Part shown: one piece after another, positions 5,872 to 45,673 of the stretch
Numbering within the stretch: the stretch's first letter is position 1
How the letters are laid out: every line of letters begins with the position of its first letter
From: an uncultured Candidatus Saccharibacteria bacterium
GTDB lineage: Bacteria; Patescibacteriota; Minisyncoccia; Phycocordibacterales; UBA2100
DNA length: 64,000 bases
Reading direction: 5' to 3'
Assembly: GCA_964362175.1 (NCBI GenBank)
Contig: CAYIDD010000002.1
Coordinates: forward strand, 45,939-109,938
The notes under the pieces: generated by a model
Database searches by the model: none
The model's input: the letters and a program-made list of their open reading frames with translations, nothing else
Told to the model about the DNA's origin: nothing
Program-made: the position numbers and the translations under genes

Positions 5872-7095
5872 ATGACACGTAACGAACTGCAAAAATCCAA
5901 GCTTCCCGACAAGCCCGGAGTGTATATATTCCGCGGGAAGGGAAGAAAGATACTCTACATCGGAAAGGCGACATCGCTCCGAGATCGCCTGCGAAGTTAT
6001 TTTTCGTCCAATATTGCCTCTATCCGCAGCAGCGCGATCGCAAAAATGGTGGAAGAGGCTCGCTCGATCTCGTACAAAACCACAAAGTCGGTGCTCGAAG
6101 CGCTCATTCTTGAGGCGAACCTCATAAAGCAGCATCAGCCGCCGTACAATCTCGATGAGAAAGACAACAAAAGTTGGAATTACGTAGTCATAACGAAAGA
6201 GAACTTTCCCCGAATATTGCTTGTGCGCGGACGAGAACTGTATCAGAAATGGGATCTGAAGGATGTCGCACGTACATTTGGACCTTTTCCACACGGCAAA
6301 CAATTGCAGGAGGCAGTGAAAATCGTTCGGAAAATATTTCCGTTCCGCGACAAATGTACACCCTGTGGAGGTCCCGACGTGGTATGCAAGCCGTGCTTCA
6401 ACCGGCAGATAGGGCTGTGCCCTGGTGTGTGTTACGGCGAAGTATCGAAAGAAGAATATGCGCGCACCGTTCGGAACATCCATCAATTATTTTCCGGGAA
6501 CTTTAAGGGGCTCAAACGGCAACTTGCGCGTGACATGAAAGCAGCGGCGGAGGGGGAGCGCTTCGAGGCGGCATCCAGACTGCGCCAGCAAATTTCGGCG
6601 CTCGAACATATCCGCGACGTATCGCTGATAAAAAATGGATTGCCATCGAGCGGCGGAGGCACTCGCATTGAGGCCCTCGATGTGGCGCACACCGGAGGGT
6701 CTGAGACCGTTGCGGTGATGGTCGTTGTCAGCAACGGAGAGGCGGTAAAGAATGCATACAGAAAATTTAAGATACGTACCGCGGCAAATGACGATATTGC
6801 GGCGCTCAAGGAGGCACTAACTCGTCGCCTCACTCATCCGGAATGGCCTCTACCGCGGGTGTTCGTCGTTGATGGGGGCGTGGCCCAAATGAGAGCTGCA
6901 GCGTTGGTTTCCAAGGAAGCCGGGGTTGCTATTCCTATCGTGGGGGTCGTAAAGAATGAGTTCCACAAGCCGGAACGCCTCATCGGGGACGCGCGGGCCA
7001 TCGAGGCGTATGAAAAGGATATTCTGTTCGCGAACAGCGAAGCCCACAGGTTCGCTCTTCAGTGGCACCGCACGCGCCGTGACAAGATATACTGA
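5872..7095 (+). CDS. uvrC: Excinuclease ABC subunit C, short form lacking the C-terminal HhH domain
   Basis: GIY-YIG motif ([18 protein letters not shown]), the UvrBC-interaction region and the RNase H-like endonuclease domain are present. It is only about 407 aa from the ATG at 5872; the track start at 5857 is a GTG overlapping the -10 box. Confidence 0.85.
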
Positions 7096-7100
7096 GTACC

Positions 7101-7535
7101 ATGTATTGGACCTATGTACAAATACTCACGTTTCTCTCTATCCTCGCGGTTATATTTGGCGGGGGATATGTAGCATATCGAAACGCGACAACGCCGGAAA
7201 CAATGGATCTGTATGCTGCCGCAGACCTTGATCTTTCCCGGTTTCCCCCCACCGTCTGCAGGACCTCATGGAGTTCATTTGAGGCAGCCGGAAGCGCGGT
7301 TGCGTATATTGTGGAAGGTAAATTTCGTATGGATGTGCAAATGGTCGCGGGAAAAGATACGGCCGTCTACCATATCGTAAAGCTCCCCGGCAAAGCTATA
7401 GAGGCTTCGGGCAAGCGAAATAACGTTGAGAATATTGATCCCGCAGATATTGTATTACCGGAAGCGGAATTACGTACCGTTGCACAATGTGATCCGTGGT
7501 GGTTCCCCAACCGGTCTTTTTTCAACGTCTTGTGA
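7101..7535 (+). CDS. Hypothetical membrane-anchored protein
   Basis: 144 aa with an N-terminal TM helix (ILTFLSILAVIFGGGYVAY) and no recognisable domain. It has its own TATACT -10 box 7 nt upstream. Confidence 0.5.
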   Translation: MYWTYVQILTFLSILAVIFGGGYVAYRNATTPETMDLYAAADLDLSRFPPTVCRTSWSSFEAAGSAVAYIVEGKFRMDVQMVAGKDTAVYHIVKLPGKAIEASGKRNNVENIDPADIVLPEAELRTVAQCDPWWFPNRSFFNVL

Positions 7536-7578
7536 TCCGCATGATATTGGTACGGAAGTGTGATGGTACAATATCGGA

Positions 7579-8547
7579 ATGACACGGATGTCGGTCGGAA
7601 TTTTGCGCGGTGGAACATCAAGTGAATACAATCTGTCGCTGAGATCGGGTGCCGCGATCCTCAGTGCACTTCCCGATGATCGATACGATACGCGCGATAT
7701 TTTTGTAGACAGGCGTGGATACTGGCATTTACGGGGCACACCGATGGACGCCGCACGCGCGCTTTCCCAAGTTGATGTCGTGCTCAATGCACTGCACGGG
7801 GGGCCTGGTGAGGATGGTACGGTGCAGCGCATTCTCGAACGCGCCGGCATCCCGTATGCGGGTTCGCGCGCCTCCGCCTCCGCGCTCGCGCTCAATAAAA
7901 TTCGCGCGCGAAATGTTCTTGAAAAAGCCGGCATACGAATGCCGCGCGCTTCGTCGTTCACCATGCAAGACGATCTTACTACCGGACAGATGGCGCAGCT
8001 CGTGTTTGCCCGATTCGGCCCGCCCTACGTTGTGAAGCCCCCCAGCGAGGGGGCGGCAACCGGAGTTCGCATTGCGGGGACATTGTTGGACCTGCCCGAT
8101 CTTCTGGGAGACGTGCTCGATGCATACGGCGCGGCCCTGGTGGAAGAGTATGTGCGCGGACAGGAGGCGAGTGTCGGTGTCATCGAAAATTTCCGTGGGG
8201 AAGATCTCTACGCGTTGCCTCCGGCGCATGTCGTCCTTCCGGAGGGGTTCCACTTCATGGAACTGCGGCACCACGAAGAGGGAATGTTGCGGCACATGGT
8301 GCCAAGCAGTTTTCATCATGACGAAAAACAGGCTCTTTCAAATATGGCGCGTGCTGCTCACAGGGCACTCGGCTTGTCGCATTTCTCGCGCGCGGATATC
8401 ATCCTGACGTCCCGCGGCCCGTATCTCTTGGAAGCGAATGCGATTCCCGGTCTCTACAGGGGAGCATCTTTTCCGGCGATGCTCGAATCCGTGGGTTCCT
8501 CCGTACGCGAATTTCTCGAGCACGCGATACATTTGGCTCGGAAATAA
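7579..8547 (+). CDS. ddl: D-alanine--D-alanine ligase
   Basis: 322 aa. N-terminus MSVGILRGGTSSEY, HGGPGEDGTVQ motif and an ATP-grasp C-terminal domain. Confidence 0.9.
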   Translation: MTRMSVGILRGGTSSEYNLSLRSGAAILSALPDDRYDTRDIFVDRRGYWHLRGTPMDAARALSQVDVVLNALHGGPGEDGTVQRILERAGIPYAGSRASASALALNKIRARNVLEKAGIRMPRASSFTMQDDLTTGQMAQLVFARFGPPYVVKPPSEGAATGVRIAGTLLDLPDLLGDVLDAYGAALVEEYVRGQEASVGVIENFRGEDLYALPPAHVVLPEGFHFMELRHHEEGMLRHMVPSSFHHDEKQALSNMARAAHRALGLSHFSRADIILTSRGPYLLEANAIPGLYRGASFPAMLESVGSSVREFLEHAIHLARK

Positions 8548-8609: not shown

Positions 8610-9524
8610 TCAGGCAGCCAGGCGAATGTCGTACTGCCGGAGCGTTTGGTACACTTGCCCGAGCGTAGGCGGTTCGTTTCCGAACCGCTGGATTTTGTGG
8701 GCCACGGCCGCGGTTGCAAATCGGAGATGGCGCTCCCAGGCTTGATCTGGGTACGTCAGATAGGAGTAGATGCGAGCGCCATTGAAGATGTCGCCGGAGC
8801 CGTTCTCGTCGATCACCGATTCTTCGGGAACCTTCAGTGCGTTCATATGCGTAATTGGTCCGTCGTCGACGAAGTATCGAAGGCCGTCCGCACCGAGTGT
8901 CACTATGCCGACCTCAGCATGTCGACGGAGATCAGATAGCATCCCATCCACGCTCTGTCCCATATCATCGCAGAAGCGCGCTGAAACAGTTGCGTGGGTG
9001 ATACGCGGCAAAAGTTTTTCGATACCCGGTCGAGCCCTTCCAAAGTCGCTTGATCTAGGAATGCCCAGGCGTTCTGCCTCGCCAAGATAATACTCTGCCG
9101 CGTCGAAGTGCCGACCGTCAACGTGGACGAGTCGGCAATTTTCGATGTTAAGCAGAGGAAAGTCCTGTAAGTAGCTTTCTCCCTCAGGCGGACTGATGAT
9201 CACGCGACCGGATTCGTTCGGAAGAATGATCGCGCTTGGCGTTTCTTCCATCAGCCGCGGATGCCAGTAGATACCGGCCTCCTTTACCACCTGCTCGATC
9301 ATTAAGCCCGCGATGTCCTTGCCGATGCCGCTGATGACATCGGGCTTGAGACCGAATACGGCGCAGGTCACCGCTGCCGTGAAAGCGTTGCCGCCGGAGC
9401 GAAAAGCTTTCTTTAACGCCACCGTTTTTTGGTCGCCCGTGGGAATGCTCTTGACGAGCGCCACGTCATCAAGGATCGCCTGACCGATAAACAGAACGCT
9501 TCCTCGAAGTTGGGTACGGTCCAT
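8610..9524 (-). CDS. PfkB/ribokinase-family carbohydrate or nucleoside kinase
   Basis: 304 aa. GG motif near the N-terminus and a C-terminal DENGSGDIFNGA (DTxGAGD-like) anion-hole motif. Confidence 0.7.
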   Translation of the reverse strand: MDRTQLRGSVLFIGQAILDDVALVKSIPTGDQKTVALKKAFRSGGNAFTAAVTCAVFGLKPDVISGIGKDIAGLMIEQVVKEAGIYWHPRLMEETPSAIILPNESGRVIISPPEGESYLQDFPLLNIENCRLVHVDGRHFDAAEYYLGEAERLGIPRSSDFGRARPGIEKLLPRITHATVSARFCDDMGQSVDGMLSDLRRHAEVGIVTLGADGLRYFVDDGPITHMNALKVPEESVIDENGSGDIFNGARIYSYLTYPDQAWERHLRFATAAVAHKIQRFGNEPPTLGQVYQTLRQYDIRLAA

Positions 9525-9658
9525 GGTTACTCCTCACCTGTTGCCGCTGTGCATTTTTTGAGCGCTATGAACTGACCGAATACTGTTCTAATCAAAAGCA
9601 TTGTCAATACCTTCCGCTTTGCGAATATGGTGAAGTCTGGTAGTTTAAAGCTTCGACT

Positions 9659-9733
9659 GGGCCAGTAGTTCAGTGGTAGAATGCCTCATTTGCAATGAGG
9701 AGGTCCGGGGTTCGATCCCCCGCTGGTCCACCA
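9659..9733 (+). tRNA. tRNA-Ala (anticodon UGC), CCA encoded
   Basis: Cloverleaf: acceptor GGGCCAG/CTGGTCC with the G3:U70 alanine identity pair. Anticodon stem CCTCA/TGAGG with loop TTTGCAA gives anticodon TGC. T-arm CGGGG-TTCGATC-CCCCG. Confidence 0.9.
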
Positions 9734-11991
9734 TGCATATCGTTGTTCCTATAAAAAACCTTCACGAACACATCGCTACGTTAGCACGGACCACGCCAAA
9801 AAAGATCGCGCTTGTCGCGACGGACGAACGGGGGACTACCACCGAGAAGATCACGTATGCCGACTTGCTCGAAAAGGTAGAAGCGGCGGCGGCGGAGTTG
9901 AGAGATCTCGGTTTGCAAAAGGGGGATCGTATCGCGCTCGCATTCCGTAATTCGCCCGCACTTCTTATATGGAGCTGGGCCGCATGGGCGATGGGCATAG
10001 TGACGGTGCCCATGGACACAAAGCGGGACACTCCGGAACTCTACGCGTATAAGATCAATCTCAATAAAGCGAAGGTGTTGATCCTTGAGCGGGGGATACA
10101 GGTAGATAAACTACCTGGCGTTCGTGTCAAAGTACATCTGGAATTCCCTTCCGAAGGAGGGTCCGCCTCTGGCGGAAAAGGTGCACCGGTTGCATGGGAG
10201 AAGGGGCTCTCGCATCAATCGCTCGTTCTCTTTACCTCCGGCACGACCGGCCATCCGAAGGGGGCGATGCTCTCCCTCGAGAATCTCATCGTCAATGCGA
10301 GCGGTATCTGTGAATGGTTACGGTTCACCGAGAATGATGTATTTCTCGTAAATCTGCCCCTGCACCACATCAACTCCACCACGTTCTGCCTCTCGACGCT
10401 CCTTGCGGGCGGTACGATCGCCATACCGCCGCAGTATTCGAATTCGCATTTTTGGGAGCAGAGCGGCAAAACGGGCGCTACCGTTACGTCTGTGGTGCAA
10501 TCGATCGTATTTGATCAGCTGAAGCGCGAAAAGGAGTTCGCGGCCGGGAAAAAACATGTAAAACTGAATAAAATACAAATAGGCTCTGCTCCGGTACTCG
10601 CACAGTCGGTGCAGGAATTCCAGAAGAAATTTGGCATCCGTCTCTATCAAGGCTACGGACAAACGGAGACGGCGCTTCGGGTGACCGGCGTTCCAATGGA
10701 CATTTCGGAGGAGCTCCACGAAAGACTTGTGGAGGAAAATTCCATCGGGACACCTATGCAATGGGCCGATCTGCAGGTATCGGACGATGAGGGAAAGCTA
10801 CTCGACGAGGGAGAGGAGGGGGAACTCATCGTCAAAGGTCCCGCGATCATGGAAGGGTACCTCGGACGCGAACCGGCGTTCCGCAACGACTACTTCCTTA
10901 CGGGGGACATCGGCTACTACCGTGTTATCGAGGGCCGGAAATATTTTTATCTCAAAGGCCGCAAACGGGAAATCATCATCAAGGGTGGTATCAACGTCTC
11001 GCCAGTCGCTGTCGAAAATGCTCTCAAGAAAATATCAGGAGATATAGATCAGGTACACGTTGTCCCCGTGCCTGATGAACGATATGGCGAGGAGGCTGGC
11101 GCCGTCATCTCATGGAAAACCGGTATAGATGAAATGCGCGCGAAACGGTACCTCAAGAGCACACTACTCCTCGGTACGCGATACCTCAGTGCATACGAGA
11201 CGCCCAAGTACATAACATCACTTTCAATAAGCGAGCTTCCGATGACCTCCACCGGAAAAGTGCAACGCGGCGTTCTGAAAGGCACCATTCCGTATGAAAA
11301 ATTCGAGTCAATATTCGGTCTCCTCAAGACACCTAAGTACCGCTTTACTGTGTTGCACCGCTATTCACGATGGACGGAGCCCTCATATGAACTACACAAA
11401 CGTTGCTGGGGGGATATTGCCGGCACGAGGGAGGAGTATGAAAAGAATATCCCCAAACAGCTCATTATCCTTGCGGCAAGGCCGGACGACACGATCGTCG
11501 GACAGATCGCCGTCGTTCGTACGAGCCTCCCGGAAAAGGAGCTTCTTCAAAAAAAATATGATGAATTGATCCCAGAAGCATCTGATCGTGAGGGAAATGC
11601 GCTTGTATGCGTTTCCATTTGCAACGCTGAATACACGCCAAGACCCATTCCTTCGGTGAATTTAATCCCGAAACCCGATGAGGTCCGCGCATATCTTTTA
11701 GGCGGGAACGACCCCGTCATGCGATTCCACGAAAAGCCGAAAGGAGGTCTTGCCGAGGGTGCAAAGCTTGTCGACGTCATTGAGAGTGGCCGGCCCAAAG
11801 ACAAAAGCTCGCTCGGATACAACATGCTTCTCAAATATCCGGAACCGAAAAATATTGTCATCCATACGCACGCACCCGTCCCCAACCAGCTCATTGAGAT
11901 GGTGCTTCTTCTTGCGGGCGATCTCGGTATCAAAAATGTGTACGCCTACTCGCGTCCTGGCGGCTTGGCGTCGTATGTATCCACAGGTTGA
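9733..11991 (+). CDS. AMP-forming acyl-CoA synthetase/ligase fused to an extra C-terminal domain of about 220 aa with no recognised family
   Basis: Motifs TSGTTGHPKG, YGQTE, GEL..KG.....GY and C-terminal TGKVQR of adenylate-forming enzymes end near residue 530. A further ~220 residues follow. The ATG at 9733 shares its A with the tRNA CCA; the track start at 9673 is a GTG inside the tRNA. Confidence 0.8.
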   Translation: MHIVVPIKNLHEHIATLARTTPKKIALVATDERGTTTEKITYADLLEKVEAAAAELRDLGLQKGDRIALAFRNSPALLIWSWAAWAMGIVTVPMDTKRDTPELYAYKINLNKAKVLILERGIQVDKLPGVRVKVHLEFPSEGGSASGGKGAPVAWEKGLSHQSLVLFTSGTTGHPKGAMLSLENLIVNASGICEWLRFTENDVFLVNLPLHHINSTTFCLSTLLAGGTIAIPPQYSNSHFWEQSGKTGATVTSVVQSIVFDQLKREKEFAAGKKHVKLNKIQIGSAPVLAQSVQEFQKKFGIRLYQGYGQTETALRVTGVPMDISEELHERLVEENSIGTPMQWADLQVSDDEGKLLDEGEEGELIVKGPAIMEGYLGREPAFRNDYFLTGDIGYYRVIEGRKYFYLKGRKREIIIKGGINVSPVAVENALKKISGDIDQVHVVPVPDERYGEEAGAVISWKTGIDEMRAKRYLKSTLLLGTRYLSAYETPKYITSLSISELPMTSTGKVQRGVLKGTIPYEKFESIFGLLKTPKYRFTVLHRYSRWTEPSYELHKRCWGDIAGTREEYEKNIPKQLIILAARPDDTIVGQIAVVRTSLPEKELLQKKYDELIPEASDREGNALVCVSICNAEYTPRPIPSVNLIPKPDEVRAYLLGGNDPVMRFHEKPKGGLAEGAKLVDVIESGRPKDKSSLGYNMLLKYPEPKNIVIHTHAPVPNQLIEMVLLLAGDLGIKNVYAYSRPGGLASYVSTG
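10156..10181 (+). repeat. Palindromic mini-element copy 1, in-frame in acs (encodes EGGSASGGKG)
   Basis: GGAGGG-TCCGCC-tct-GGCGGA-AAAGG. It matches 24 of 26 nt of the nspC copy. Confidence 0.7.
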
Positions 11992-12070
11992 TTTCAAAGG
12001 GTCTCGTGATACTGTGGAGGTACTAACTCATTGTTCGTTCATCAGCTCAAGCTCAGGAAAGGGGGCCGAA

Positions 12071-12226
12071 ATGGCCGATACCCAACACGACTCGAAGATC
12101 CCGACTTCATCCGACCCCAAGCAGAACCCCGTTTCTGCGCCGAACATACAACCGGTCGCCAAGCCGCCGGTTGAAAAAGCGGACCAACACATGAGTCAAG
12201 AGGCGCTCAGGGGTCTCAACAGCTAG
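12071..12226 (+). CDS. Small hypothetical protein (51 aa) with a canonical SD
   Basis: ATG preceded by AGGAAAGGGGG about 6 nt upstream and followed by a strong terminator. Proline/lysine-rich and low complexity. Confidence 0.35.
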   Translation: MADTQHDSKIPTSSDPKQNPVSAPNIQPVAKPPVEKADQHMSQEALRGLNS

Positions 12227-12268
12227 GCACCAGCGCCGAGCGTATTGTTCATTGCATACCTTCCATTA

Positions 12269-12306
12269 CACCACCAAGGTCCTATGATCTTGGTGGTGCA
12301 TTTTTT
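12269..12306 (+). terminator. Rho-independent terminator
   Basis: CACCACCAAG-gtcctatgat-CTTGGTGGTG followed by TTTTTT. Confidence 0.7.
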
Positions 12307-12480
12307 GTATGTGCATTTTAGCGTCATTTTGAGCCATATAATCAAGATTTCCACGGCTTAGATCTCCTGTCATTGCTTATTTCGGCGGATGCGGTAGGAT
12401 GTTTGCGAATGTAAGTTTTCCATACAAGTACGTGGAAAGGTTGGTTTACATCATTTTAGAGGAAACACACACAAAGAATC

Positions 12481-12828
12481 ATGGCTAAGAAGCTATACGT
12501 CGGCGGGCTGCCCTACAGCACGACCGATACGGAGCTCAAAGATGCTTTCGCGCAAGCGGGGACCGTCGAATCTGCTGTCATCATCATGGATAAGATGAGC
12601 GGCCGTTCAAAGGGTTTCGGCTTCGTTGAGATGTCTTCCGATGAGGATGCACAGAAGGCGATCGATATGTGGAACGGTAAGGATTTCGGCGGACGCTCTC
12701 TCACGGTAAATGAAGCGCGTCCGATGGAAGACCGACCGCGACGCGACTTTCGTAGCGGCGGCAATGACCGCGGCGGTTACGGAGGCGGACGGGGAGGCAA
12801 TGGAGGAGGTGGCGGCAGAAGCTGGTAA
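12481..12828 (+). CDS. RRM-type glycine-rich RNA-binding protein
   Basis: RNP2 LYVGGL and RNP1 KGFGFVEM motifs, with a C-terminal RGG/GGYGGG tail. Confidence 0.9.
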   Translation: MAKKLYVGGLPYSTTDTELKDAFAQAGTVESAVIIMDKMSGRSKGFGFVEMSSDEDAQKAIDMWNGKDFGGRSLTVNEARPMEDRPRRDFRSGGNDRGGYGGGRGGNGGGGGRSW

Positions 12829-20983: not shown

Positions 20984-21055
20984 AGTTCGGGTTTCATCCC
21001 TGCGGGATTGTTAATAAGCGGCTTTTTCAGTGTCGCGAGATGGTAGAATCGCCAC

Positions 21056-22483
21056 ATGGTCTTCATAGGCGACTATGAGCAACAGGGGGTGATCACCACC
21101 GGTGATGTACGGGGCATTATCTCGGGGTTTCTTCATCTTGATCTACACAAGATAATCGACGGAACGGTGGGAAACTACTGGGGCATTTCGCGCGCGCTCC
21201 AACTCAGCATTCTCTTTTGGGGATTTATGGGTATCCTGTGGATCCAGATTCCCCACCTACCACTTTTTGCGGCTCAATGGCTTCTCGGAACAGCGCCTAT
21301 TTGGATGCCTATAGTGACGCTGGTCACAACATGGAAGATCTGGCTGTGGTATTCGCGCAGCATGTATCTCTTTAAGCGGGATTCGATGCTTCTCGAGGTG
21401 AAGATGCCGCGGGACATTACGCGTTCGCCGCGGGCGATGGAAAATGCGCTCTCGAAGCTTTGGACCGACTCGGGTGAGACGACATTCCTGAACCGCGTGT
21501 GGCAAGGTCAGTGCAGACCGTATTTTTCTCTGGAAATCGCTTCGTTCGGCGGCGAGATCCATTTCTATATATGGACGTGGCGTAACTGGAGACAGGTCGT
21601 GGAGTCAATGATGTATGCATACTATCCGGAGGTCGAGCTTGTGGAGGCCGAAGATTATGCCTCGAAGTTCAAATTCGATCCGGACACGCAGGAATGTTTT
21701 CCCACCGATTGGCGCTACGAGCCGCGCAACGACGCGTATCCCATACGCACCTACGTCGAATTCGAGCTCGATAAGGACCCCAAGGAGGAGTACAAGATCG
21801 ATCCTCTCGCAGAGGTGCTTGAGCGCATGAGTGGTCTCAGGCCAGATGAACAGATGTGGATACAGATAATCATCACGATGTGCAGGGATACTCGCGCAAA
21901 AAAAGGCGGGCATTGGTGGGAAACGGAAAATCGTTACACCGCATTGATCAAAGAAGAGATCGATGTGCTTCGCAAAGAGACGACCTCTGCCGATCCGGGT
22001 GATCGATCCGCACCTGATGCATGGAAGTCAATGGCTCGCGTCCCGATGCATCGCTACACGGAATTGATCAAGGCTATGGACCGCAACATGGGCAAGCACC
22101 CCTTCAACGTCGGCATGCGCGGCGTGTATATCTCGGATGCGAAGAATTTTGCGGGGCCGGGCTATACCGGCATGCGCTGGATATGGCGCCCTGTGGGAAA
22201 TCCGCAATATATGAACCAATTGCGTCCGCGTCGCTGGGGCAACCCATTCGACTGGCCGTGGCAGGATTATAAAGACATCCGGTGGCGCCTGATGCAGCGC
22301 AGATTTTTCGATTGTTATCGCAGGCGCTCCCATTTTTATTCTCCGTGGATCATGCCGCACAATATGATGAGCACCGAGATCATCGCGACACTGTGGCATC
22401 CGCCAAGCGCCGCGATCGGCGTTCCCGGCCTTGAGCGTATTCCCGCAAAGAAGGCGGAGCCGCCATCGAATTTGCCGAAATAA
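21056..22483 (+). CDS. Hypothetical Trp-rich membrane-anchored protein (475 aa)
   Basis: Two N-terminal TM helices, then about 370 aa that are W/R/Y-rich. No Walker or other known motif. Own TAGAAT -10 box 6 nt upstream. Confidence 0.5.
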   Translation: MVFIGDYEQQGVITTGDVRGIISGFLHLDLHKIIDGTVGNYWGISRALQLSILFWGFMGILWIQIPHLPLFAAQWLLGTAPIWMPIVTLVTTWKIWLWYSRSMYLFKRDSMLLEVKMPRDITRSPRAMENALSKLWTDSGETTFLNRVWQGQCRPYFSLEIASFGGEIHFYIWTWRNWRQVVESMMYAYYPEVELVEAEDYASKFKFDPDTQECFPTDWRYEPRNDAYPIRTYVEFELDKDPKEEYKIDPLAEVLERMSGLRPDEQMWIQIIITMCRDTRAKKGGHWWETENRYTALIKEEIDVLRKETTSADPGDRSAPDAWKSMARVPMHRYTELIKAMDRNMGKHPFNVGMRGVYISDAKNFAGPGYTGMRWIWRPVGNPQYMNQLRPRRWGNPFDWPWQDYKDIRWRLMQRRFFDCYRRRSHFYSPWIMPHNMMSTEIIATLWHPPSAAIGVPGLERIPAKKAEPPSNLPK

Positions 22484-26509: not shown

Positions 26510-26532
26510 AGGGGAAGTGGTATACTGCCGCG

Positions 26533-27318
26533 ATGAGTTTGTTTAAAGCCTATAATCCCAACAGAAGTGCTGATTGGAACTACGGGGGCAACAAGTGGCG
26601 CCTCTCGCGCTCAAAGATCGATCTTTACATCGAGTGTCCGCGTTGCTTTTATCTCGATAATAGGCTCGGCACCGGACGGCCGCGTGGTCCTGCATTTACC
26701 CTCAACGTCGCGGTCGATGCGCTTTTGAAAAAAGAATTCGATGTGCATCGTGCCGCTAAGGAAGCGCATCCACTGATGACAAAATACGGTGTTGATGCGG
26801 TGCCGTTTGAGCATCCAGCACTCAATACATGGCGTGAAAACTTCAAGGGGCTTGAGCACAAGCATGAGACCGGTCTTACTGTCTCGGGCGCAGTGGACGA
26901 CGTTTGGGTCGATCCAAAGGGTAATCTTATCGTTGTCGACTACAAGGCAACCTCCAAAAACGGCACCATCGAAACACTTGCGGATTCCTCGTGGGAAGAG
27001 CAGTACAAACGGCAGATGGGCGTGTATCAGTGGCTTTTGCGCAAGAATGGCTTCTCCGTATCGGATAAGGGCTACTTCGTGTACGCGAACGCAAGCTCGG
27101 ACAAAGAGGCTTTCGATGGCCAGCTCGAATTTGAAGTGACGCTTGTTCCGTGTGAAGGGAGCGCCGATTGGATAGACGACATCCTTCCAAAAATCAAGGC
27201 ATGTCTCGACGGCGACGATCTACCAGAAATCGGACGATACTGCGAATTTTGTTCGTACCGCGAAGCTGCCGGCAAAAAACTGCAGGATCTCGTGAAGAAA
27301 CAAAAGAAACCCTCATGA
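26533..27318 (+). CDS. Cas4-like PD-(D/E)XK nuclease with a 4-Cys Fe-S cluster motif
   Basis: N-terminal CPRCFY and C-terminal CEFCSY cysteine pairs. VVDYKATSK (D..K) and QMGVYQWLL (Q..Y) nuclease motifs. Confidence 0.65.
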   Translation: MSLFKAYNPNRSADWNYGGNKWRLSRSKIDLYIECPRCFYLDNRLGTGRPRGPAFTLNVAVDALLKKEFDVHRAAKEAHPLMTKYGVDAVPFEHPALNTWRENFKGLEHKHETGLTVSGAVDDVWVDPKGNLIVVDYKATSKNGTIETLADSSWEEQYKRQMGVYQWLLRKNGFSVSDKGYFVYANASSDKEAFDGQLEFEVTLVPCEGSADWIDDILPKIKACLDGDDLPEIGRYCEFCSYREAAGKKLQDLVKKQKKPS

Positions 27319-28113: not shown

Positions 28114-28202
28114 GACACTCCCGTCATTGATAGTGGAATATTCCCTGCAACCGGCTGATTCCGGAACAGGACTGTGGCGCAATATGTGGTAATATCCGAC
28201 TC

Positions 28203-29378
28203 ATGTCAAACGAGCAAACCGTTGGTCAGTTCGCCAAAGCTCATCCGGAAATACGGACACCGTACTATCTCATAGACGAATCACTACTTCTGAAGAATCT
28301 TGAAAAGATCAAATACGTACGCGAAAAAAGTGGTGCGAGGTCGGTTATGGCACTCAAATGTTTCTCGACATGGTCAGTCTTCCCGCTCATGAGCAAATAC
28401 ATGGACGGGACCACGTCGAGTGCGCTTTATGAGGCACGACTCGGGCATGAGAAATTCGGAGGGGAGACACAGGCGTACAGTGTGGCGTGGTCGCAGAAAG
28501 ATATCGATGAAGTAAAAACATTCGCCGACAAGATCATATTCAACTCCATTTCGCAGCTGGACCGTTTCTACGACGAGGTGTCCTCCGGAGGAGGATCCGC
28601 CTCCGGCGGAAAAGGCATGAACATCGGCTTGCGGGCCAATCCCGGTATCAGTTACTCCCACTTCGATCTCGCTGATCCCGCTCGCAAGGCAAGCCGACTC
28701 GGTGTGAGAGACATCGCCGCAGTCGAAAAAGTTGCCGACAAAATACGGGGCCTGATGTTCCACGTAAACTGCGAGAACACGGATTTCGATGCTTTCTCGA
28801 AGATAGTCGACCAGATAGGTGAGAAGTACGGGTCGCTTCTCAAAAAAATGGAATGGGTGAGCCTCGGAGGCGGTATAGCGTTTACAAATGAAGGATACCC
28901 GCTCGACAAATTTTGCGAACGACTGAAAAAATTTGCGAACGACTACGACGTGCAGGTATATCTCGAGCCGGGTGAAGCTTCGGTCCTCGGTTCGGGTTTC
29001 TTGGTGACGCAAGTTCTTGATGTTGTGAAGAACGAGGCCGACATCGCCATTATCAATGCTGCCGTCGAGACTCACATGCTCGACAATCTCGTCTATCATG
29101 AAGATGCAACGCTCGCCAACCCCCAAAAGGGTCCCCACCGCTTCATGGTCGCCGGTAACACGTGTCTCGCGGGCGACGTATGGGGGACCTATGACTTGCC
29201 CGAACCGTTGAAGGTCGGTGATTATGTCGTGTTCGACAATGCGGCGCGCTATACAATGGTCAAGATGAGCTGGTTCAACGGTGTGCAGATGCCGAGTATC
29301 GTCGTGAAGCGGCTCGATGGAAAAGTTGACGTGGTGCGGGAATTTACATACGATGACTTCCGTAAAAGCCTGTCGTAA
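28203..29378 (+). CDS. nspC: Carboxynorspermidine/carboxyspermidine decarboxylase
   Basis: N-terminus TPYYLIDESLLLKNLEKIKYV...ALKCFSTWSVF; PLP-dependent fold III decarboxylase, 391 aa. Confidence 0.8.
   Translation: MSNEQTVGQFAKAHPEIRTPYYLIDESLLLKNLEKIKYVREKSGARSVMALKCFSTWSVFPLMSKYMDGTTSSALYEARLGHEKFGGETQAYSVAWSQKDIDEVKTFADKIIFNSISQLDRFYDEVSSGGGSASGGKGMNIGLRANPGISYSHFDLADPARKASRLGVRDIAAVEKVADKIRGLMFHVNCENTDFDAFSKIVDQIGEKYGSLLKKMEWVSLGGGIAFTNEGYPLDKFCERLKKFANDYDVQVYLEPGEASVLGSGFLVTQVLDVVKNEADIAIINAAVETHMLDNLVYHEDATLANPQKGPHRFMVAGNTCLAGDVWGTYDLPEPLKVGDYVVFDNAARYTMVKMSWFNGVQMPSIVVKRLDGKVDVVREFTYDDFRKSLS
28581..28615 (+). repeat. Palindromic mini-element copy 2, in-frame in nspC (encodes SSGGGSASGGKG)
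   Basis: TCCTCC-gga-GGAGGA-TCCGCC-tcc-GGCGGA-AAAGG, two tandem perfect 6-bp hairpins. Confidence 0.7.
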
Positions 29379-35134: not shown

Positions 35135-35195
35135 TTACTCACACATAACTCGGGAGTGCGCCTCTATGTACCCGTAGGCACGATATACTGACGAA

Positions 35196-36362
35196 ATGTT
35201 CGGAACACATCTCGGGCGCGGGCGCGGGAAGATAGTCGCTGTCGCCGATATTGGAAGCGGAAGCGCGGGTGTCGCAATACTCGGCATTCATCCCGGCGAG
35301 CCGGTATCGGTCCTTGCTGCCGAACGCGCCATCCTTTCCATGGAGGATCGTGGGGAAGAGGCAACAACGACGGGGGTCGCCGATCAACTCGTAAAAGCGG
35401 GAGAAGCCGTCAGAAAAAAATTCACTAATCTGGGCAAGGATGCACATCCCATACATGAACTCTACGTCATCATACGGGCGCCGTGGAGCCATTCCGAGAC
35501 GAAACGTGTCTCGACGACATTCAAAGAGCAAATCACGGTTACCGATCATATGATCGGCGAGCTTGCCGAGCGAGCGCTCGCCGAGGTGAGGGAGCTCGAT
35601 CGTGGGAACTTTCTGGAAGCCAAGGTGATACGGGTCGAGCTCAACGGGTACTCGTGTGCGAAACCCGTGGGCAAGCACGCAACGGAGATCTCGGCATTTG
35701 TGCTGATAAGCGGTTGGCACTCGACCATCCGCGCCAAAATAGAGGCGTCTTTGCAAAAGGTGTTTCCCCACCTTTCCCCCGCATTCCGCTCTTCAGTATG
35801 GGCGGCGATCGCGGTGTTGCGGGAGGGAATGTCGCAAGAATATGATTATCTCATCGTCGACATGTCGAGCGAGGGGACAGCATTCGTGGCGATCCGCGAT
35901 GGTGTCGCCACCGAACACATGCTTATTCAGGAGGGGGTGCGCACCATACTGAAACGTGTCTCCGGATCGGGAATGCCTGAAGAGGCTCTGAACCTCATCC
36001 GCATGCTTTCGTCGGATCAATGCTCGAGCGCCGCGTGCGAGGCTACCCGCGAGTCGCTCGCTCGTGCGGAGCCGGAACTTGTACGGGTCTTCGGGGAAGC
36101 GCTCGGCACATGCGCATCGGAACAACGATTACCAAACACGCTCATTCTATTCGTTCATCCCGATGTTGCCACGTGGCTTTCGCGTTTCTTTTCACGTATC
36201 GACTTTTCGCAATTCACGAAAACGGCGCAACCGTTCCAGGTGAGGATCGTCGGCACTACTGACCTTTCGACATGGGTGGCACCGTCGGGCGGCATGGTAT
36301 TGGATCCGGGACTCGCGCTTGGAAGCGCACTTGTCAACATCGAGAAGCGGAGGGGGCAATGA
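35196..36362 (+). CDS. Actin-like (ASKHA-superfamily) ATPase, FtsA/PilM/Ppx-like
   Basis: Phosphate-1 VAVADIGSGSAGVAILGI and phosphate-2 LIVDMSSEGTAFVAI motifs, 388 aa. Exact family unresolved. Confidence 0.5.
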   Translation: MFGTHLGRGRGKIVAVADIGSGSAGVAILGIHPGEPVSVLAAERAILSMEDRGEEATTTGVADQLVKAGEAVRKKFTNLGKDAHPIHELYVIIRAPWSHSETKRVSTTFKEQITVTDHMIGELAERALAEVRELDRGNFLEAKVIRVELNGYSCAKPVGKHATEISAFVLISGWHSTIRAKIEASLQKVFPHLSPAFRSSVWAAIAVLREGMSQEYDYLIVDMSSEGTAFVAIRDGVATEHMLIQEGVRTILKRVSGSGMPEEALNLIRMLSSDQCSSAACEATRESLARAEPELVRVFGEALGTCASEQRLPNTLILFVHPDVATWLSRFFSRIDFSQFTKTAQPFQVRIVGTTDLSTWVAPSGGMVLDPGLALGSALVNIEKRRGQ

Positions 36363-36383
36363 GGTTTGGTATACTGAGTCGCT

Positions 36384-44562: not shown

Positions 44563-44592
44563 TTGCTCCCTACCTCTAGCGGGCACTATAAT
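44563..44592 (+). promoter_or_regulatory. dnaJ promoter: -35 TTGCTC (44563-44568), 18-nt spacer, -10 TATAAT (44587-44592), 7 nt upstream of the dnaJ ATG (leaderless geometry)
   Basis: Direct sequence reading. Confidence 0.5.
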
Positions 44593-44599
44593 TAAGTAC

Positions 44600-45673
44600 A
44601 TGAAGAACTATTACGAGATACTTGGCATAGCCAAGGGCGCGAGTGACGAGGAGATAAAGAGTGCATTCAGAAAGCTGGCCCACAAGTATCATCCGGATAA
44701 GAAAGGCGGCAACGAGGCGAAGTTCAAAGAGGTGAGCGAGGCTTACTCGGTGCTTTCCGATAAGAAGAAGCGCGCTGAATATGATACCTACGGCAAGACG
44801 TTCGCCGGAGGTGGGGGGCCACAAGGCGGGGGTTTCGGAGGATTCGATTTCTCCAATTTCCAAGGATTCGGCGGACAGAACGGGCAGGCATTTGAGTTCG
44901 ACTTGGGCGATATATTCGGCGATGTATTCGGCGGAGGACAGGCCCAGGCGCGTCGAGGGCGTGATATTTCGATAGACCTTGAACTTTCATTCCGTGAGGG
45001 AGTTTTCGGTGCCGAGCGCCGCGTTCTCCTCTCTAAAATGAGCGCCTGCGATGTTTGCGGTGGCACCGGCGCGAAGAAAGGCGCGAAGATGGTGACGTGT
45101 ACGGGCTGCAACGGCAAGGGCGAAATACGCGAGTCACGCAATTCTTTCTTCGGCACCTTTACATCATCGCGCTCCTGCCCGCGCTGTCACGGCCGCGGGG
45201 AGATACCGGAGATCCCCTGCGATTCGTGCCGCGGCGAAGGCGTGCGCAAGCGCGAAGAGGAAATACATGTGGTGGTTCCCGCAGGCGTCGAAGACGGCGA
45301 GATGATACGCATGCCCGGCCGCGGAGAAGCCGCGACAGGGGCGAGTGCGGGAGATCTCTACGTCAAACTTCACATCAAATCCGACGCGCGATTCTCGCGC
45401 GATGGCAACAATCTCGTTACATCACTCCCCGTGCGGCTCACCGACGCTCTCTTGGGCAGGGAATATAGTATCGATACGCTTGATGGCAAAGAGACCATTT
45501 ATGTAAATCCGGGCATCGCGCATGGGGAAATTATTCGCGTACGGGGCAGGGGGGTACCACACGGCCGGGGAAGTCGCGGCGACCTTTTGGTGCGCGTTGA
45601 TATCGAATTCCCGAAAAAACTCTCGAAAGGTGCGCGTGAATTGATAGAAAAATTGCGCACAGAGGGGCTCTAA
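44600..45673 (+). CDS. dnaJ: Chaperone DnaJ
   Basis: J-domain with HPD (KYHPDKK), G/F-rich region and four CxxCxGxG zinc-finger repeats. Confidence 0.95.

What the first reader, a model, noticed from the sequence alone, without database searches (positions are those of the whole stretch)
9659..9735. tRNA-Ala 3' CCA end supplies the A of the downstream acs start codon (ACC-A-TG)
Seen directly: ...CTGGTCC-A-CCATGCATATC. The encoded CCA at 9731-9733 is immediately followed by TG, so the acs ATG is 9733-9735 with zero intergenic distance. Alternative starts are implausible because conserved adenylation-domain sequence begins about 15 aa later. Co-transcription would mean that tRNA 3' processing (RNase Z or exonucleolytic trimming) generates the 5' end of a leaderless acs mRNA. 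A tRNA-linked, processing-coupled mRNA start is rarely described.
Basis: partly seen in the sequence, partly recalled or inferred. Interest (0 to 1): 0.5.

Follow-up and report, generated by a model that had tools for sequence, protein, structure and literature searches.

The report
tRNA-Ala abuts a leaderless ligase gene
In this groundwater Kaiserbacteria-like (CPR) genome and at least eleven relatives, a working tRNA-Ala gene ends 2-4 bases before the start codon of a conserved acyl-CoA-ligase gene, so cutting the tRNA out of a shared transcript probably creates a nearly leaderless mRNA, as in mitochondria.

Summary
tRNA-Ala(UGC) occupies 9659-9730, followed by CCA at 9731-9733, and A9733 is the A of the ATG of a 752-aa ORF. 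Homologue N-termini confirm this start codon, and two independent assemblies carry the same junction.

The CCA overlap looks incidental. Eleven other distinct relatives also have the tRNA against the ATG, but their spacers are CA, CT, CAA, CAT, CTT, ATTT (2-4 nt; two outliers of 7 and 12 nt). What is conserved is the close spacing.

Three results support processing-coupled, near-leaderless expression:
- 31% of first ATGs in the window have a TGnTAnnnT -10 box ending 6-9 nt upstream, against 3-4% in controls. This is the signature of leaderless transcription.
- Where the tRNA is inverted or distant, the same gene has its own -10 box 7-9 nt before the ATG in most cases.
- Same-strand spacing is either 12 nt or less, or 66 nt or more.

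The best reading is a bacterial version of mitochondrial tRNA punctuation (confidence 0.55). No RNA data were available and RNase Z was not located. The gene is not acs; it is a generic ANL ligase fused to a GNAT-like domain. I rate it a new variant of known kinds, interest about 0.6.

The parts
9619..9646 (+). Candidate promoter of the tRNA-Ala/ligase transcription unit: -35 TTGCGA (9619-9624), 16-nt spacer, extended -10 TGgTAGTTT (9638-9646). Predicted transcription start about 9652-9656, giving a 3-7 nt tRNA 5' leader.
   Evidence: Read directly. It matches the window's own -10 consensus TGGTAnnnT, derived. The generic scan did not report it because TAGTTT matches TATAAT at only 3 of 6 positions. 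This is an inference, not a mapped start site.
9659..9730 (+). tRNA-Ala(UGC) body from G1 to discriminator A73, with the G3:U70 alanine identity pair.
   Evidence: ARAGORN. Rfam RF00005, 70 bits, E 7e-15. G3:U70 and A73 read directly. Nine sequence variants in relatives keep the cloverleaf through compensatory stem changes.
9674..9682 (+). D-arm sequence TGGTAGAAT, which also matches the genome's extended -10 consensus. It is the basis of the rival 'promoter inside the tRNA' reading.
   Evidence: TCGACT-18-TAGAAT, 9653-9682. It is identical to the -10 box before the gene at 21056. It is changed to TAGAAC in L003 and L010 and to TAGAGC in L141, all of which still have the tRNA against the ATG.
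9731..9733 (+). Bases C74, C75 and A76 following the discriminator. They spell CCA, and A9733 is shared with the start codon. In functional terms this is a 2-nt spacer (CC) between the tRNA and the ATG.
   Evidence: Relatives have CA, CT, CAA, CAT, CTT, ATTT, CAAAGGT or CAAATTATTTCT at the same place.
9733..11991 (+). ORF of 752 aa. Residues about 18-510 form an ANL-superfamily adenylate-forming (acyl-CoA-ligase-like) domain. Residues about 515-752 form a GNAT-like domain. The start codon is ATG 9733-9735.
   Evidence: Pfam PF00501 E 4e-67; PF13193 is marginal at 24.1 bits, just under its 24.5 cut-off. NCBIfam hits are all below their cut-offs. PDB sequence hits are fatty-acyl-, feruloyl- and malonyl-CoA synthetases. 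The C-terminal model has pLDDT 93.9, and its best fold matches are the GNAT-like decarboxylases 7uci, 2ref and 6mfc. N-terminal alignment.
12071..12226 (+). Small ORF of 51 aa after the ligase, preceded by GGAAAGGGGG. It may be the last cistron of the unit. Coding status is unverified.
   Evidence: Not followed up.
12269..12308 (+). Intrinsic-terminator-like hairpin (13 pairs) followed by a T-run. This is the probable 3' end of the tRNA-ligase transcription unit.
   Evidence: the only + strand hit in 11900-12500. Sequence.

Best explanation
The tRNA-Ala gene and the ligase gene form one transcription unit. It is driven by the promoter just upstream of the tRNA (about 9619-9646) and ends at the hairpin at 12269-12308. 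The tRNA is a working tRNA-Ala(UGC).

When the tRNA is excised, an endonucleolytic cut at or next to discriminator A73 (RNase Z type) would leave a 5'-monophosphate mRNA starting CC-AUG. That is a 2-nt leader with no Shine-Dalgarno sequence. The CCA-adding enzyme would then complete the tRNA. The mRNA would be translated by the leaderless pathway that this organism appears to use for many promoter-proximal genes.

The arrangement would be a bacterial counterpart of mitochondrial tRNA punctuation. The tRNA's 3' boundary takes the place of the -10 box that, in sister lineages, sits 7-9 nt before the same ATG. The CCA/ATG overlap in this genome is a by-product of a 2-nt spacer that happens to read CC.

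Shown: the tRNA, the start codon, the conserved abutment, the genome-wide -10 signature, and the alternative promoter-driven arrangement in relatives. Inferred: co-transcription, the nuclease and the exact cut site, and translation of the processed RNA.
For: 1. The tRNA looks functional. It scores 70 bits against Rfam and has G3:U70, A73 and anticodon UGC. Nine variants in relatives keep the structure through compensatory stem changes.

2. The start codon is fixed by homology, and there is no room for a promoter or a Shine-Dalgarno sequence. The 20 nt before the ATG are the T-arm and acceptor strand. No TANNNT box ends 5-10 nt before the ATG, and the GGAGG at 9699-9703 is 29 nt away.

3. Twelve distinct loci have tRNA-Ala on the same strand with 2, 2, 2, 3, 3, 3, 3, 3, 3, 4, 7 or 12 nt between A73 and the ATG, and every start codon is ATG. 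They span divergent proteins, most 58-78% identical to the window's in the N-terminal 150 residues and L122 51%, and four different tRNA sequence variants. In a neighbour-joining tree they are spread through the Kaiserbacteria-like clade. In L003 the N-terminus is 6 aa shorter, yet the ATG still sits 3 nt from the tRNA.

4. Same-strand spacing falls into two groups: 12 nt or less, or 66 nt or more. L096, the one spaced locus where the tRNA directly precedes the gene (69 nt), has its own TAAGCT -10 box 7 nt before the ATG.

5. In most relatives where the tRNA is inverted, distant or absent, the ligase ATG is preceded by TGnTAAGCT, TATACT or TACAAT ending 7-9 nt upstream. That predicts a 5' UTR of 0-3 nt, the same length as the tRNA-to-ATG spacer.

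6. Across the window, 18 of 58 first ATGs have TANNNT ending 6-9 nt upstream. The controls are 8 of 270 internal in-frame ATGs and 83 of 2095 ATG trinucleotides overall (Fisher p 1.3e-9 and 2.6e-11). Convincing Shine-Dalgarno motifs are rare. This is the signature used to predict leaderless genes (Zheng et al. 2011, cited in PMC4014445).

7. 18 of 22 tRNA-Ala trailers in the lineage do not encode CCA. From established knowledge of tRNA maturation, that means CCA is normally added after 3' processing.

8. The junction is identical in two independent assemblies.
Against: - There are no RNA data. Co-transcription, the cut site and translation of the processed RNA are all inferred.
- No RNase Z or CCA-adding enzyme gene was found in the 64-kb window or in about 1.2 Mb of related loci. 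That is a small and biased sample, so the result is uninformative, but the enzyme has not been shown to be present.
- From my own knowledge of B. subtilis, E. coli and eukaryotic RNase Z, an encoded CCA, and C at position 74 generally, reduces cleavage after the discriminator. The window spells CCA and 21 of 22 trailers start with C. In Thermotoga-type processing the cut falls after CCA, which here would remove the A of the AUG.
- If 3' maturation in CPR is exonucleolytic (the ribonucleases reported as retained in at least 90% of CPR genomes are RNase J, RNase III and PNPase, PMC12641178), the mRNA could not survive tRNA maturation.
- In E. coli even a few extra 5' nucleotides lower leaderless translation (Krishnan et al. 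2010, cited in PMC4448216).
- The D-arm carries a perfect -10-like box.
- Two abutting loci have 7- and 12-nt spacers.
- Four inverted-tRNA relatives (L001, L002, L006, L007) have their TAAGCT box 17-29 nt before the ATG, so this gene is apparently also expressed with a short leader and no Shine-Dalgarno sequence.
Confidence: 0.55

Rival explanations
1. Precursor translation with mutually exclusive fates. The tRNA and the ORF are co-transcribed, but the ligase is translated from the unprocessed or only 5'-processed tRNA-mRNA chimera by internal initiation without a Shine-Dalgarno sequence, next to the folded tRNA. The tRNA may also protect the 5' end against RNase J. Maturation of the tRNA 3' end, by exonucleases or by a cut after CCA, destroys that molecule as an mRNA.
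For: Many operon-internal genes in the window also lack a Shine-Dalgarno sequence, for example 29393, 30761 and 57554, so initiation without one on internal sites appears possible. The region after the ATG is A/U-rich and weakly structured. The window's encoded CCA and the conserved C74 are poor contexts for classical RNase Z cleavage (own knowledge). CPR reportedly retain RNase J and PNPase (PMC12641178). No RNase Z was found in the sequence held.
Against: It does not explain why the spacer is held at 2-4 nt in 10 of 12 lineages, or why no same-strand spacer lies between 13 and 65 nt. It does not explain why the spacer length equals the 5' UTR predicted for most promoter-driven relatives. A tRNA needed for decoding GCN codons must be matured efficiently, which would leave little precursor.
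Confidence: 0.2
2. An independent promoter lies inside the tRNA gene. The D-arm TGGTAGAAT (9674-9682) acts as an extended -10 box. Transcription starts near 9688 and gives a ligase mRNA with a leader of about 45 nt made of the 3' half of the tRNA, independent of tRNA processing.
For: The motif is reported by the promoter scan. It is identical to the -10 boxes in front of other genes in the window, for example 21056. It is present in 9 of the 12 abutting loci.
Against: The critical last T is lost in L003 and L010 (TAGAAC) and in L141 (TAGAGC), all of which keep the abutment. The motif is dictated by tRNA D-arm structure, so its presence is not evidence of selection as a promoter. The resulting leader would have GGAGG 29 nt from the ATG, behind a stable T-arm, which is not a usable Shine-Dalgarno spacing. 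It does not explain the 2-4 nt spacing constraint.
Confidence: 0.12
3. Neutral compaction. Genome streamlining deleted the spacer between two neighbouring genes. The closeness has no role in expression, and the CCA/ATG overlap is chance.
For: CPR genomes are compact. The CCA overlap itself is not conserved. The tRNA has repeatedly changed orientation and distance in this neighbourhood, so the arrangement is evolutionarily labile.
Against: The gene still needs a 5' end and an initiation signal, and nothing else is available in the abutting loci. The arrangement recurs or persists across 12 distinct loci with most spacers in a narrow range, always with ATG, and the alternative state always brings its own -10 box. 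The protein is conserved, about 60-77% identical over its full length among close relatives with an intact ORF, so it is expressed.
Confidence: 0.08
4. The encoded CCA is the functional element: the mature tRNA 3' end (A76) and the mRNA 5' end (A of AUG) are specified by the same nucleotide.
For: The sequence does read CCATG.
Against: One nucleotide cannot end up in both products of a single cut. A cut after A76 leaves UG..., and a cut before it leaves a tRNA that needs repair by the CCA-adding enzyme. The other 11 abutting loci do not spell CCA. CCA occurs in only 4 of 22 tRNA-Ala trailers, and three of those four are unrelated to abutment.
Confidence: 0.05

Closest known systems
Mitochondrial tRNA punctuation (Ojala, Montoya and Attardi 1981): RNase P and RNase Z (ELAC2) excise tRNAs from polycistronic transcripts and release leaderless mRNAs
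   Same: A tRNA directly flanks a coding sequence with 0-4 nt between them. There is no promoter or Shine-Dalgarno sequence in between. The mRNA 5' end would be defined by tRNA 3' processing. The start codon lies at or within a few nt of the 5' end. CCA is added after transcription (true of most relatives here).
   Different: This is a bacterial chromosome with ordinary promoters. Only one junction in 64 kb is of this type, and only the 5' side of the mRNA is punctuated. The arrangement is optional, since sister lineages use a -10 box instead. The nuclease has not been identified and no RNA evidence exists. In this genome CCA is encoded and overlaps the AUG.
Bacterial leaderless mRNAs made by transcription initiation at the start codon (Actinobacteria, Deinococcus, some Mollicutes; lambda cI)
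   Same: AUG start, no Shine-Dalgarno sequence, a predicted 0-4 nt 5' UTR, and a genome in which a -10 box 6-9 nt upstream of ATG is common (31% of first ATGs in the window).
   Different: Here the 5' end would be a processed 5'-monophosphate created by a nuclease, not a primary triphosphate end from RNA polymerase. A 2-4 nt extension remains.
Bacterial tRNA-mRNA operons (E. coli thrU-tyrU-glyT-thrT-tufB, metY-rimP-nusA-infB, tyrT-tpr); from my own knowledge
   Same: A promoter-proximal tRNA gene is co-transcribed with a downstream protein gene and separated from it by RNA processing.
   Different: Those operons have intergenic leaders tens to hundreds of nt long, with Shine-Dalgarno sequences. 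Here the spacer is 2 nt and there is no Shine-Dalgarno sequence, so the processing site itself has to define a translatable 5' end.
Leaderless mRNAs generated by MazF cleavage in E. coli (Vesper et al. 2011, cited in PMC4681348)
   Same: An endonuclease cut just upstream of an AUG is proposed to turn a leadered RNA into a leaderless, translatable one.
   Different: MazF is a stress-induced toxin that cuts at ACA and leaves a 5'-OH. Here the proposed cut is constitutive tRNA maturation, which would leave a 5'-phosphate.

Membership tests
Functional tRNA-Ala | Cloverleaf that scores as a tRNA, with an alanine anticodon | tested here: met
   ARAGORN tRNA-Ala(tgc) at 9659-9733. Rfam RF00005, 70 bits against a gathering score of 29.
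Functional tRNA-Ala | G3:U70 identity pair and A73 discriminator recognised by AlaRS | tested here: met
   Read directly: 5' GGGCCAG paired with CTGGTCC 3' gives G3-T70, followed by A73. Kept in all nine variants from relatives.
Functional tRNA-Ala | Structure maintained by compensatory changes across relatives | tested here: met
   Nine variants show paired changes in the acceptor, D, anticodon and T stems, for example A6-T67 to G6-C67 in L122 and GTTC/GAAT to GCTC/GAGC in L141.
Leaderless (0-5 nt 5' UTR) bacterial mRNA | The mRNA 5' end lies within about 5 nt of the start codon | not testable with these tools
   Needs 5' end mapping. The sequence allows it: 2 nt lie between A73 and the ATG, and 2-4 nt in 10 of 12 abutting loci.
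Leaderless (0-5 nt 5' UTR) bacterial mRNA | AUG start codon (non-AUG starts are poorly used without a leader) | tested here: met
   ATG in the window and in all 11 other abutting loci.
Leaderless (0-5 nt 5' UTR) bacterial mRNA | No Shine-Dalgarno sequence at functional distance | tested here: met
   The 20 nt upstream are GATCCCCCGCTGGTCCACC. The nearest GGAGG is at 9699-9703, 29 nt away and inside the tRNA.
Leaderless (0-5 nt 5' UTR) bacterial mRNA | The host organism translates leaderless mRNAs | tested here: inconclusive
   Indirect but strong. TANNNT ends 6-9 nt upstream of 18 of 58 first ATGs, against 8 of 270 and 83 of 2095 controls. The same holds for the ligase gene in most relatives without the abutment. 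There are no experimental data, and the literature searches found nothing on leaderless mRNAs in CPR.
tRNA punctuation (mitochondrial type) | tRNA gene directly abutting the coding sequence | tested here: met
tRNA punctuation (mitochondrial type) | tRNA and mRNA on one primary transcript | not testable with these tools
   Supported only by the lack of room for a promoter, the absence of a terminator between the two genes, and a -10-like box 12 nt upstream of the tRNA.
tRNA punctuation (mitochondrial type) | Endonucleolytic cut at the tRNA 3' end by RNase Z, then CCA addition | not tested
   No RNase Z or CCA-adding enzyme gene was found in the window or in about 1.2 Mb of held loci, which is uninformative. 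That 18 of 22 lineage tRNA-Ala trailers lack CCA implies CCA addition.
Classical bacterial tRNA-mRNA operon (tufB / metY-nusA type) | An intergenic leader carrying a Shine-Dalgarno sequence between the tRNA and the ORF | tested here: not met
   The spacer is 2 nt and there is no Shine-Dalgarno sequence.
   No Acs model appears among the 25 best NCBIfam hits. The best is NF004837, long-chain-fatty-acid-CoA ligase subfamily, at 289 bits against a cut-off of 476, and every listed hit is below its cut-off. There is an extra 238-aa GNAT-like domain.
ANL superfamily adenylate-forming enzyme | AMP-binding domain plus the C-terminal subdomain | tested here: met
   PF00501 E 4e-67; PF13193 is marginal at 24.1 bits, just under its 24.5 cut-off. 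PDB sequence hits are fatty-acyl-, feruloyl- and malonyl-CoA synthetases with E values of 1e-47 to 1e-43.

The most novel reading that the evidence does not exclude
Kaiserbacteria (CPR) use tRNA 3'-end maturation as a heritable alternative to a promoter for producing a translatable, nearly leaderless mRNA. One endonucleolytic cut at the discriminator of tRNA-Ala would create both the tRNA 3' end and the ligase mRNA 5' end, which would be a bacterial form of tRNA punctuation. Lineages have switched between this state and an 'own -10 box' state, apparently several times, including by flipping the tRNA gene in place. In the window genome the encoded CCA overlapping the AUG would also make the choice of cut site (after A73 or after A76) decide whether the mRNA is usable. 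That could tie ligase output to how the tRNA is processed.
Probability: 0.45. Interest if true: 0.72.

Novelty: new variant of a known kind. Interest (0 to 1): 0.6.

Why it matters
If confirmed, this would show that tRNA punctuation is not limited to organelles. A bacterium that already relies on leaderless translation can let a tRNA's 3' boundary stand in for a promoter, tying the expression of a conserved enzyme to that of a tRNA.

It would also add evidence that CPR/Patescibacteria rely heavily on leaderless mRNAs. I found no such report in the searched literature. That affects gene calling, start-codon assignment and promoter prediction in a very large, mostly uncultured part of the bacterial tree.

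The hypothesis is directly testable with metatranscriptomes from sites where these organisms are abundant, or with an in vitro RNase Z assay on a short synthetic precursor.

More practically, gene callers that extend this ORF to GTG 9673, inside the tRNA, would be wrong. The 'acs' label should not be propagated.

Tried and rejected
- Alternative start codons. GTG 9673 lies inside the tRNA, and non-abutting relatives have in-frame stops just upstream of their ATG. The downstream TTG at codon 45 is an invariant Leu inside the domain. Both rejected.
- A canonical promoter between the tRNA and the ATG. There is no room, and no TANNNT box ends 5-10 nt before the ATG.
- Assembly artefact. Rejected: two independent assemblies are identical.
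- Integration of a mobile element at the tRNA 3' end. Rejected: the order ddl - [pfkB] - tRNA-Ala - ligase - RRM protein - next gene is conserved, and no integrase is present.
- RNA folding of the precursor against the processed mRNA. This gave only weak, ambiguous differences and an alternative pairing of the acceptor 3' strand with GGACCA in the ORF that is probably chance. It was not used as evidence.
Nothing was found, which is uninformative given the small sample.
- Other tRNA-ORF abutments in the held loci. None of the 14 non-Ala(UGC) tRNAs abuts an ORF. The sample is too small to judge how general the arrangement is.
- Short contigs from ENA and Logan assemblies, checked as possible transcript-like assemblies ending at the junction. 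These were non-abutting loci and gave no information.
- Literature. Seven searches found no bacterial example of a leaderless mRNA created by tRNA 3' processing and no report on leaderless mRNAs in CPR. The TM7x transcriptome paper (PMID 35975994) is not held.
- Rfam scan of the whole window. Only the tRNA was found.


Full report
**1. What is in the sequence**

The window holds a single tRNA gene, tRNA-Ala(UGC), on the + strand. ARAGORN places it at 9659-9733. Rfam RF00005 aligns 9659-9730, G1 to discriminator A73, at 70 bits against a gathering score of 29. Read directly, the acceptor stem is GGGCCAG/CTGGTCC with the G3:U70 alanine identity pair, followed by A73 and then C9731, C9732, A9733.

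A9733 is the first base of an ATG that opens a 752-aa ORF (9733-11991). Two independent assemblies of the same population (Hainich groundwater well H43, replicates R1 and R2) match the window at 2501 of 2501 bases across the junction, so this is not an assembly artefact.

**2. The start codon**

The Pfam AMP-binding match begins at residue 18, at profile position 5 of 384. There is no in-frame ATG, GTG or TTG between codon 1 and the TTG at codon 45, which is an invariant Leu in the family alignment. The only upstream in-frame start, GTG 9673, is inside the tRNA.

In 24 homologues spanning 54-77% identity, 21 N-termini co-align with this ATG (M, then 2-5 variable residues, then P/I-K-S/N-L-H/Y-E-H-I). 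Two start a few residues further in, and one carries a long, probably mis-called, extension. Relatives without the tRNA abutment have in-frame stop codons a few codons upstream of their ATG. The public record of the identical protein (P0001, 'Patescibacteria group bacterium') also uses the 752-aa start.

**3. Organism and gene**

The closest homologues, about 76% identical, are annotated Candidatus Kaiserbacteria. The family extends through Parcubacteria and other CPR groups and into DPANN archaea.

The protein is not an acetyl-CoA synthetase. No NCBIfam model reaches its cut-off. The best are a long-chain-fatty-acid-CoA ligase subfamily (289 bits against 476), MenE, FadD7 and malonyl-CoA synthase. 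PDB sequence hits are fatty-acyl-, feruloyl- and malonyl-CoA synthetases.

Residues about 515-752 have no Pfam match. They model confidently (pLDDT 93.9) as a GNAT-like fold. The best matches are the GNAT-like decarboxylase domains of SxtA, CurA and GphF (E 2e-7 to 1e-5, TM 0.45-0.6).

**4. Is the junction conserved?**

I fetched 160 related loci from genome and metagenome collections, called their tRNAs and located the homologous start codons. tRNA-Ala(UGC) neighbours the ligase gene only in the Kaiserbacteria-like clade. There, 12 distinct loci have it on the same strand directly against the ATG.

| Locus | Bases between A73 and ATG | Length (nt) |
|---|---|---|
| window | CC | 2 |
| L009 | CA | 2 |
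| L010 | CT | 2 |
| L003 | CAA | 3 |
| L005, L092, L098, L136 | CAT | 3 |
| L122 | CTT | 3 |
| L004 | ATTT | 4 |
| L141 | CAAAGGT | 7 |
| L121 | CAAATTATTTCT | 12 |

All of these start codons are ATG. The loci carry four different tRNA-Ala sequence variants. Their proteins are 58-78% identical to the window's in the N-terminal 150 residues, with L122 at 51%. In a neighbour-joining tree they are scattered through the clade. In L003 the protein is 6 residues shorter at the N-terminus, yet its ATG is still 3 nt from the tRNA.

So the closeness is conserved or repeatedly regained. The literal CCA is not: only the window spells it. Over all tRNA-Ala copies in the set, C74 is nearly fixed (21 of 22 trailers). 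CCA occurs in only four (window, L096, L084, L109), three of them away from any ATG.

**5. The alternative state in sister lineages**

In other members of the same clade the tRNA gene is inverted in place. The flanking ddl and ligase genes keep their orientation, and only the tRNA itself aligns in reverse complement. The inverted tRNA lies 40-160 nt upstream in most of these loci and 400-1900 nt in three. In further members it lies 66 nt to about 2.2 kb upstream on the same strand.

In most of these loci, and in more distant relatives with no tRNA nearby, the ligase ATG is preceded by an extended -10-like box (TGaTAAGCT, TGGTAAGCT, TGGTATACT or GATACAAT) ending 7-9 nt upstream. Transcription from such a box starts at, or 1-3 nt before, the A of the ATG. 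The gene is therefore normally leaderless or nearly so, with a predicted 5' UTR about as long as the tRNA-to-ATG spacer in the abutting loci.

Four inverted-tRNA loci (L001, L002, L006, L007) are an exception. Their TAAGCT box lies 17-29 nt before the ATG.

Same-strand spacing falls into two groups: 12 nt or less, or 66 nt or more. L096, the one spaced locus where the tRNA directly precedes the gene, has its own -10 box.

**6. Leaderless signature across the window**

Many genes in the window show the same layout, for example:
- TATACTgagtaccATG (7101)
- TACAATatcggaATG (7579)
- TAGAATcgccacATG (21056)
- TATAATtaagtacATG (44600)
- TACAATacccaccATG (54117)

Counted over the window, 18 of 58 first ATGs of long ORFs have TANNNT ending 6-9 nt upstream. 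The controls are 8 of 270 internal in-frame ATGs and 83 of 2095 ATG trinucleotides overall (Fisher p 1.3e-9 and 2.6e-11). The consensus is TGGTAnnnT. Convincing Shine-Dalgarno motifs are rare; the clearest is the divergent pfkB gene, ggtgaggagtaaccATG at 9524.

This is the criterion used to predict leaderless genes computationally (Zheng et al. 2011, cited in PMC4014445). The searches turned up no paper that discusses leaderless mRNAs in CPR/Patescibacteria.

**7. The transcription unit**

About 12 nt upstream of the tRNA is cTGGTAGTTT (9638-9646), with TTGCGA 16 nt further upstream (9619-9624). This fits the local -10 consensus and predicts a tRNA 5' leader of 3-7 nt. Most abutting relatives also have a TANNNT-type box 8-23 nt upstream of the tRNA.

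Nothing resembling a terminator or promoter separates the tRNA from the ORF. The first terminator-like hairpin downstream is at 12269-12298 plus a T-run, after a possible 51-codon ORF.

**8. Mechanism proposed**

The tRNA and the ligase are transcribed together from the tRNA promoter. RNase P trims the short 5' leader. An endonucleolytic cut at or next to A73, the RNase Z reaction, releases the tRNA, which the CCA-adding enzyme completes. The same cut leaves a 5'-monophosphate mRNA beginning CC-AUG, which is translated by the leaderless route.

From established knowledge, RNase Z leaves a 3'-OH on the tRNA and a 5'-phosphate on the trailer. A 5'-phosphate is compatible with leaderless initiation in E. 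coli. 5' UTRs of up to about 5 nt are counted as leaderless in S. agalactiae (under 5 nt, PMC4448216), mycobacteria and mitochondria. This is formally the mitochondrial tRNA punctuation scheme.

Every RNA-level step is inferred. I put the confidence at 0.55.

**9. Difficulties and rivals**

(a) In B. subtilis, E. coli and eukaryotes, CCA at positions 74-76, and C74 in particular, disfavours RNase Z cleavage after the discriminator. Thermotoga-type enzymes cut after CCA, which here would remove the A of the AUG (own knowledge; Dutta et al. 2013 is cited in PMC4014445). The window's CCA is thus a complication. The near-universal C74 in this lineage is unexplained.

(b) I could not show that these organisms have RNase Z. 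One study of ribosome biogenesis factors reports RNase J, RNase III and PNPase as the ribonucleases retained in at least 90% of CPR genomes (PMC12641178). If 3' maturation is exonucleolytic, tRNA maturation and mRNA survival would exclude each other, and the ligase would be translated from the precursor (rival, 0.20). That rival does not explain the 2-4 nt constraint or the two spacing groups.

(c) The D-arm TGGTAGAAT (9674-9682) matches the local -10 consensus perfectly. It could start a transcript near 9688 with a structured leader of about 45 nt (rival, 0.12). The box is broken in L003, L010 and L141, which keep the abutment. The GGAGG at 9699-9703 is 29 nt from the ATG.

(d) Neutral compaction (0.08) leaves the gene with no initiation signal at all and does not fit the pattern in relatives.

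(e) The literal 'shared A' mechanism (0.05) is not conserved, and a single cut cannot give the same nucleotide to both products.

**10. Comparison with known systems, and novelty**

The closest systems are:
- mitochondrial tRNA punctuation: same logic, but in an organelle and genome-wide;
- transcription-initiated leaderless mRNAs of Actinobacteria and Deinococcus: same translation mode, different origin of the 5' end;
- classical bacterial tRNA-mRNA operons such as tufB and metY-nusA: co-transcription, but with long leaders containing Shine-Dalgarno sequences;
- MazF-generated leaderless mRNAs: a nuclease-made leaderless 5' end, but stress-induced and with different chemistry.

Seven full-text searches found no bacterial case of a leaderless mRNA defined by tRNA 3' processing. 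I class it as a new variant of known kinds.

**11. Verdict**

The processing-coupled leaderless idea is the best reading and now has comparative backing. The CCA emphasis and the 'acs' label are not supported. Interest is 0.6. It is a conserved, testable and previously undescribed arrangement in a poorly known phylum, but it rests entirely on sequence inference and has a well-known organellar analogue.

Noticed in passing
window-wide; e.g. 7088-7103, 7567-7581, 21044-21058, 26521-26535, 28190-28205, 35184-35198, 36370-36386, 44587-44602, 45701-45715, 47595-47609, 54104-54119, 56396-56410: Many genes have a TGGTAnnnT-type -10 box ending 6-9 nt before the ATG and no Shine-Dalgarno sequence (18 of 58 first ATGs against 3-4% of control ATGs). 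This suggests widespread leaderless transcription in this Kaiserbacteria-like genome. The searches found no paper reporting this for CPR.
   Followed up: partly
window 11275-11988 (+), residues about 515-752 of the ligase: The C-terminal 238 aa have no Pfam match but model confidently (pLDDT 93.9) as a GNAT-like fold. The closest folds are the malonyl-/methylmalonyl-decarboxylating GNAT-like domains of SxtA, CurA and GphF. The N-terminal ANL domain has malonyl-CoA synthetases among its best hits. The fusion could therefore be a dicarboxylate-CoA ligase plus decarboxylase, but this is speculation. The two-domain protein is widespread in CPR and DPANN archaea. In Latescibacterota the matches cover only the ligase part, up to about residue 520.
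   Followed up: partly
L001, L002, L006, L094, L095, L099, L101, L106, L120 compared with window 9659-9733: In sister lineages the tRNA-Ala gene alone is inverted between ddl and the ligase gene, which keep their orientation. The 40-160 nt gap then holds back-to-back promoters, for example in L120: ...gaagTTATAGcagatatTGGTATACTctgcacttATG. The tRNA orientation appears to have switched several times in the clade.
   Followed up: partly
L005 3825-3925 (also L004 upstream of the tRNA): L005 carries a 10-nt duplicate of the tRNA 5' end (GGGCCAGTAG), followed by an insert of about 80 nt rich in hairpins (ccccgacgcgcaaagcggtcgggg, tcccgactgaaacgtcggga), and then the intact tRNA. The same cccgactgaaacgtcggg hairpin sits upstream of the tRNA in L004. 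It looks like a small REP- or MITE-like element inserted into the tRNA 5' end with a target duplication.
   Followed up: no
tRNA-Ala 3' trailers in the window and in the loci listed: The first base after the discriminator is C in 21 of 22 trailers, and the second is usually A, whatever follows. CCA itself is encoded in only 4. The reason for the conserved C74 is unknown. It is an unfavourable context for classical RNase Z.
   Followed up: no
L001, L002, L006, L007, about 20-35 nt upstream of the ligase ATG: The -10 box TAAGCT is followed 2 nt later by an ATG (TAAGCTctATGtctgg...). In L006 this opens a 7-codon mini-ORF ending in a TAA just before the main ATG. It may be a leaderless upstream ORF, or a short leader without a Shine-Dalgarno sequence.
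   Followed up: no
window 12071-12226 (+) and 12269-12308 (+): A possible 51-codon proline- and lysine-rich ORF (MADTQHDSKIPTSSDPKQNP...) preceded by GGAAAGGGGG, followed by a strong terminator-like hairpin (13 pairs plus a T-run). Its coding status and conservation were not checked.
   Followed up: no
window 12309-12480, upstream of the RRM-protein gene 12481-12828: Unlike its neighbours, the RRM (RNA-binding) protein gene has a long upstream non-coding stretch of about 170 nt after the terminator. It contains a catATAATcaag box near 12336-12346 and a GAGGAAA motif about 17 nt before the ATG. This suggests a leadered, possibly regulated mRNA. The protein is 89-96% identical across relatives, far more conserved than its neighbours.
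   Followed up: no
window 7579-8547 (ddl), 9659-9730 (tRNA-Ala), 9733-11991 (ligase-GNAT): The order D-Ala-D-Ala ligase, tRNA-Ala, ANL-GNAT fusion is conserved across the clade. Some GNAT-fold enzymes use aminoacyl-tRNA: Fem transferases, and aminoacyl-phosphatidylglycerol synthases, which appear weakly in the fold search (4v36, E 0.02). A functional link between the tRNA and its neighbours cannot be excluded, but there is no direct support for one.
   Followed up: no
window 9525-9658: The 134-nt region between the divergent pfkB-family kinase gene (8610-9524, - strand, the one clear Shine-Dalgarno-led gene nearby) and the tRNA must hold two divergent promoters. pfkB is present between ddl and the tRNA in only some relatives.
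   Followed up: no
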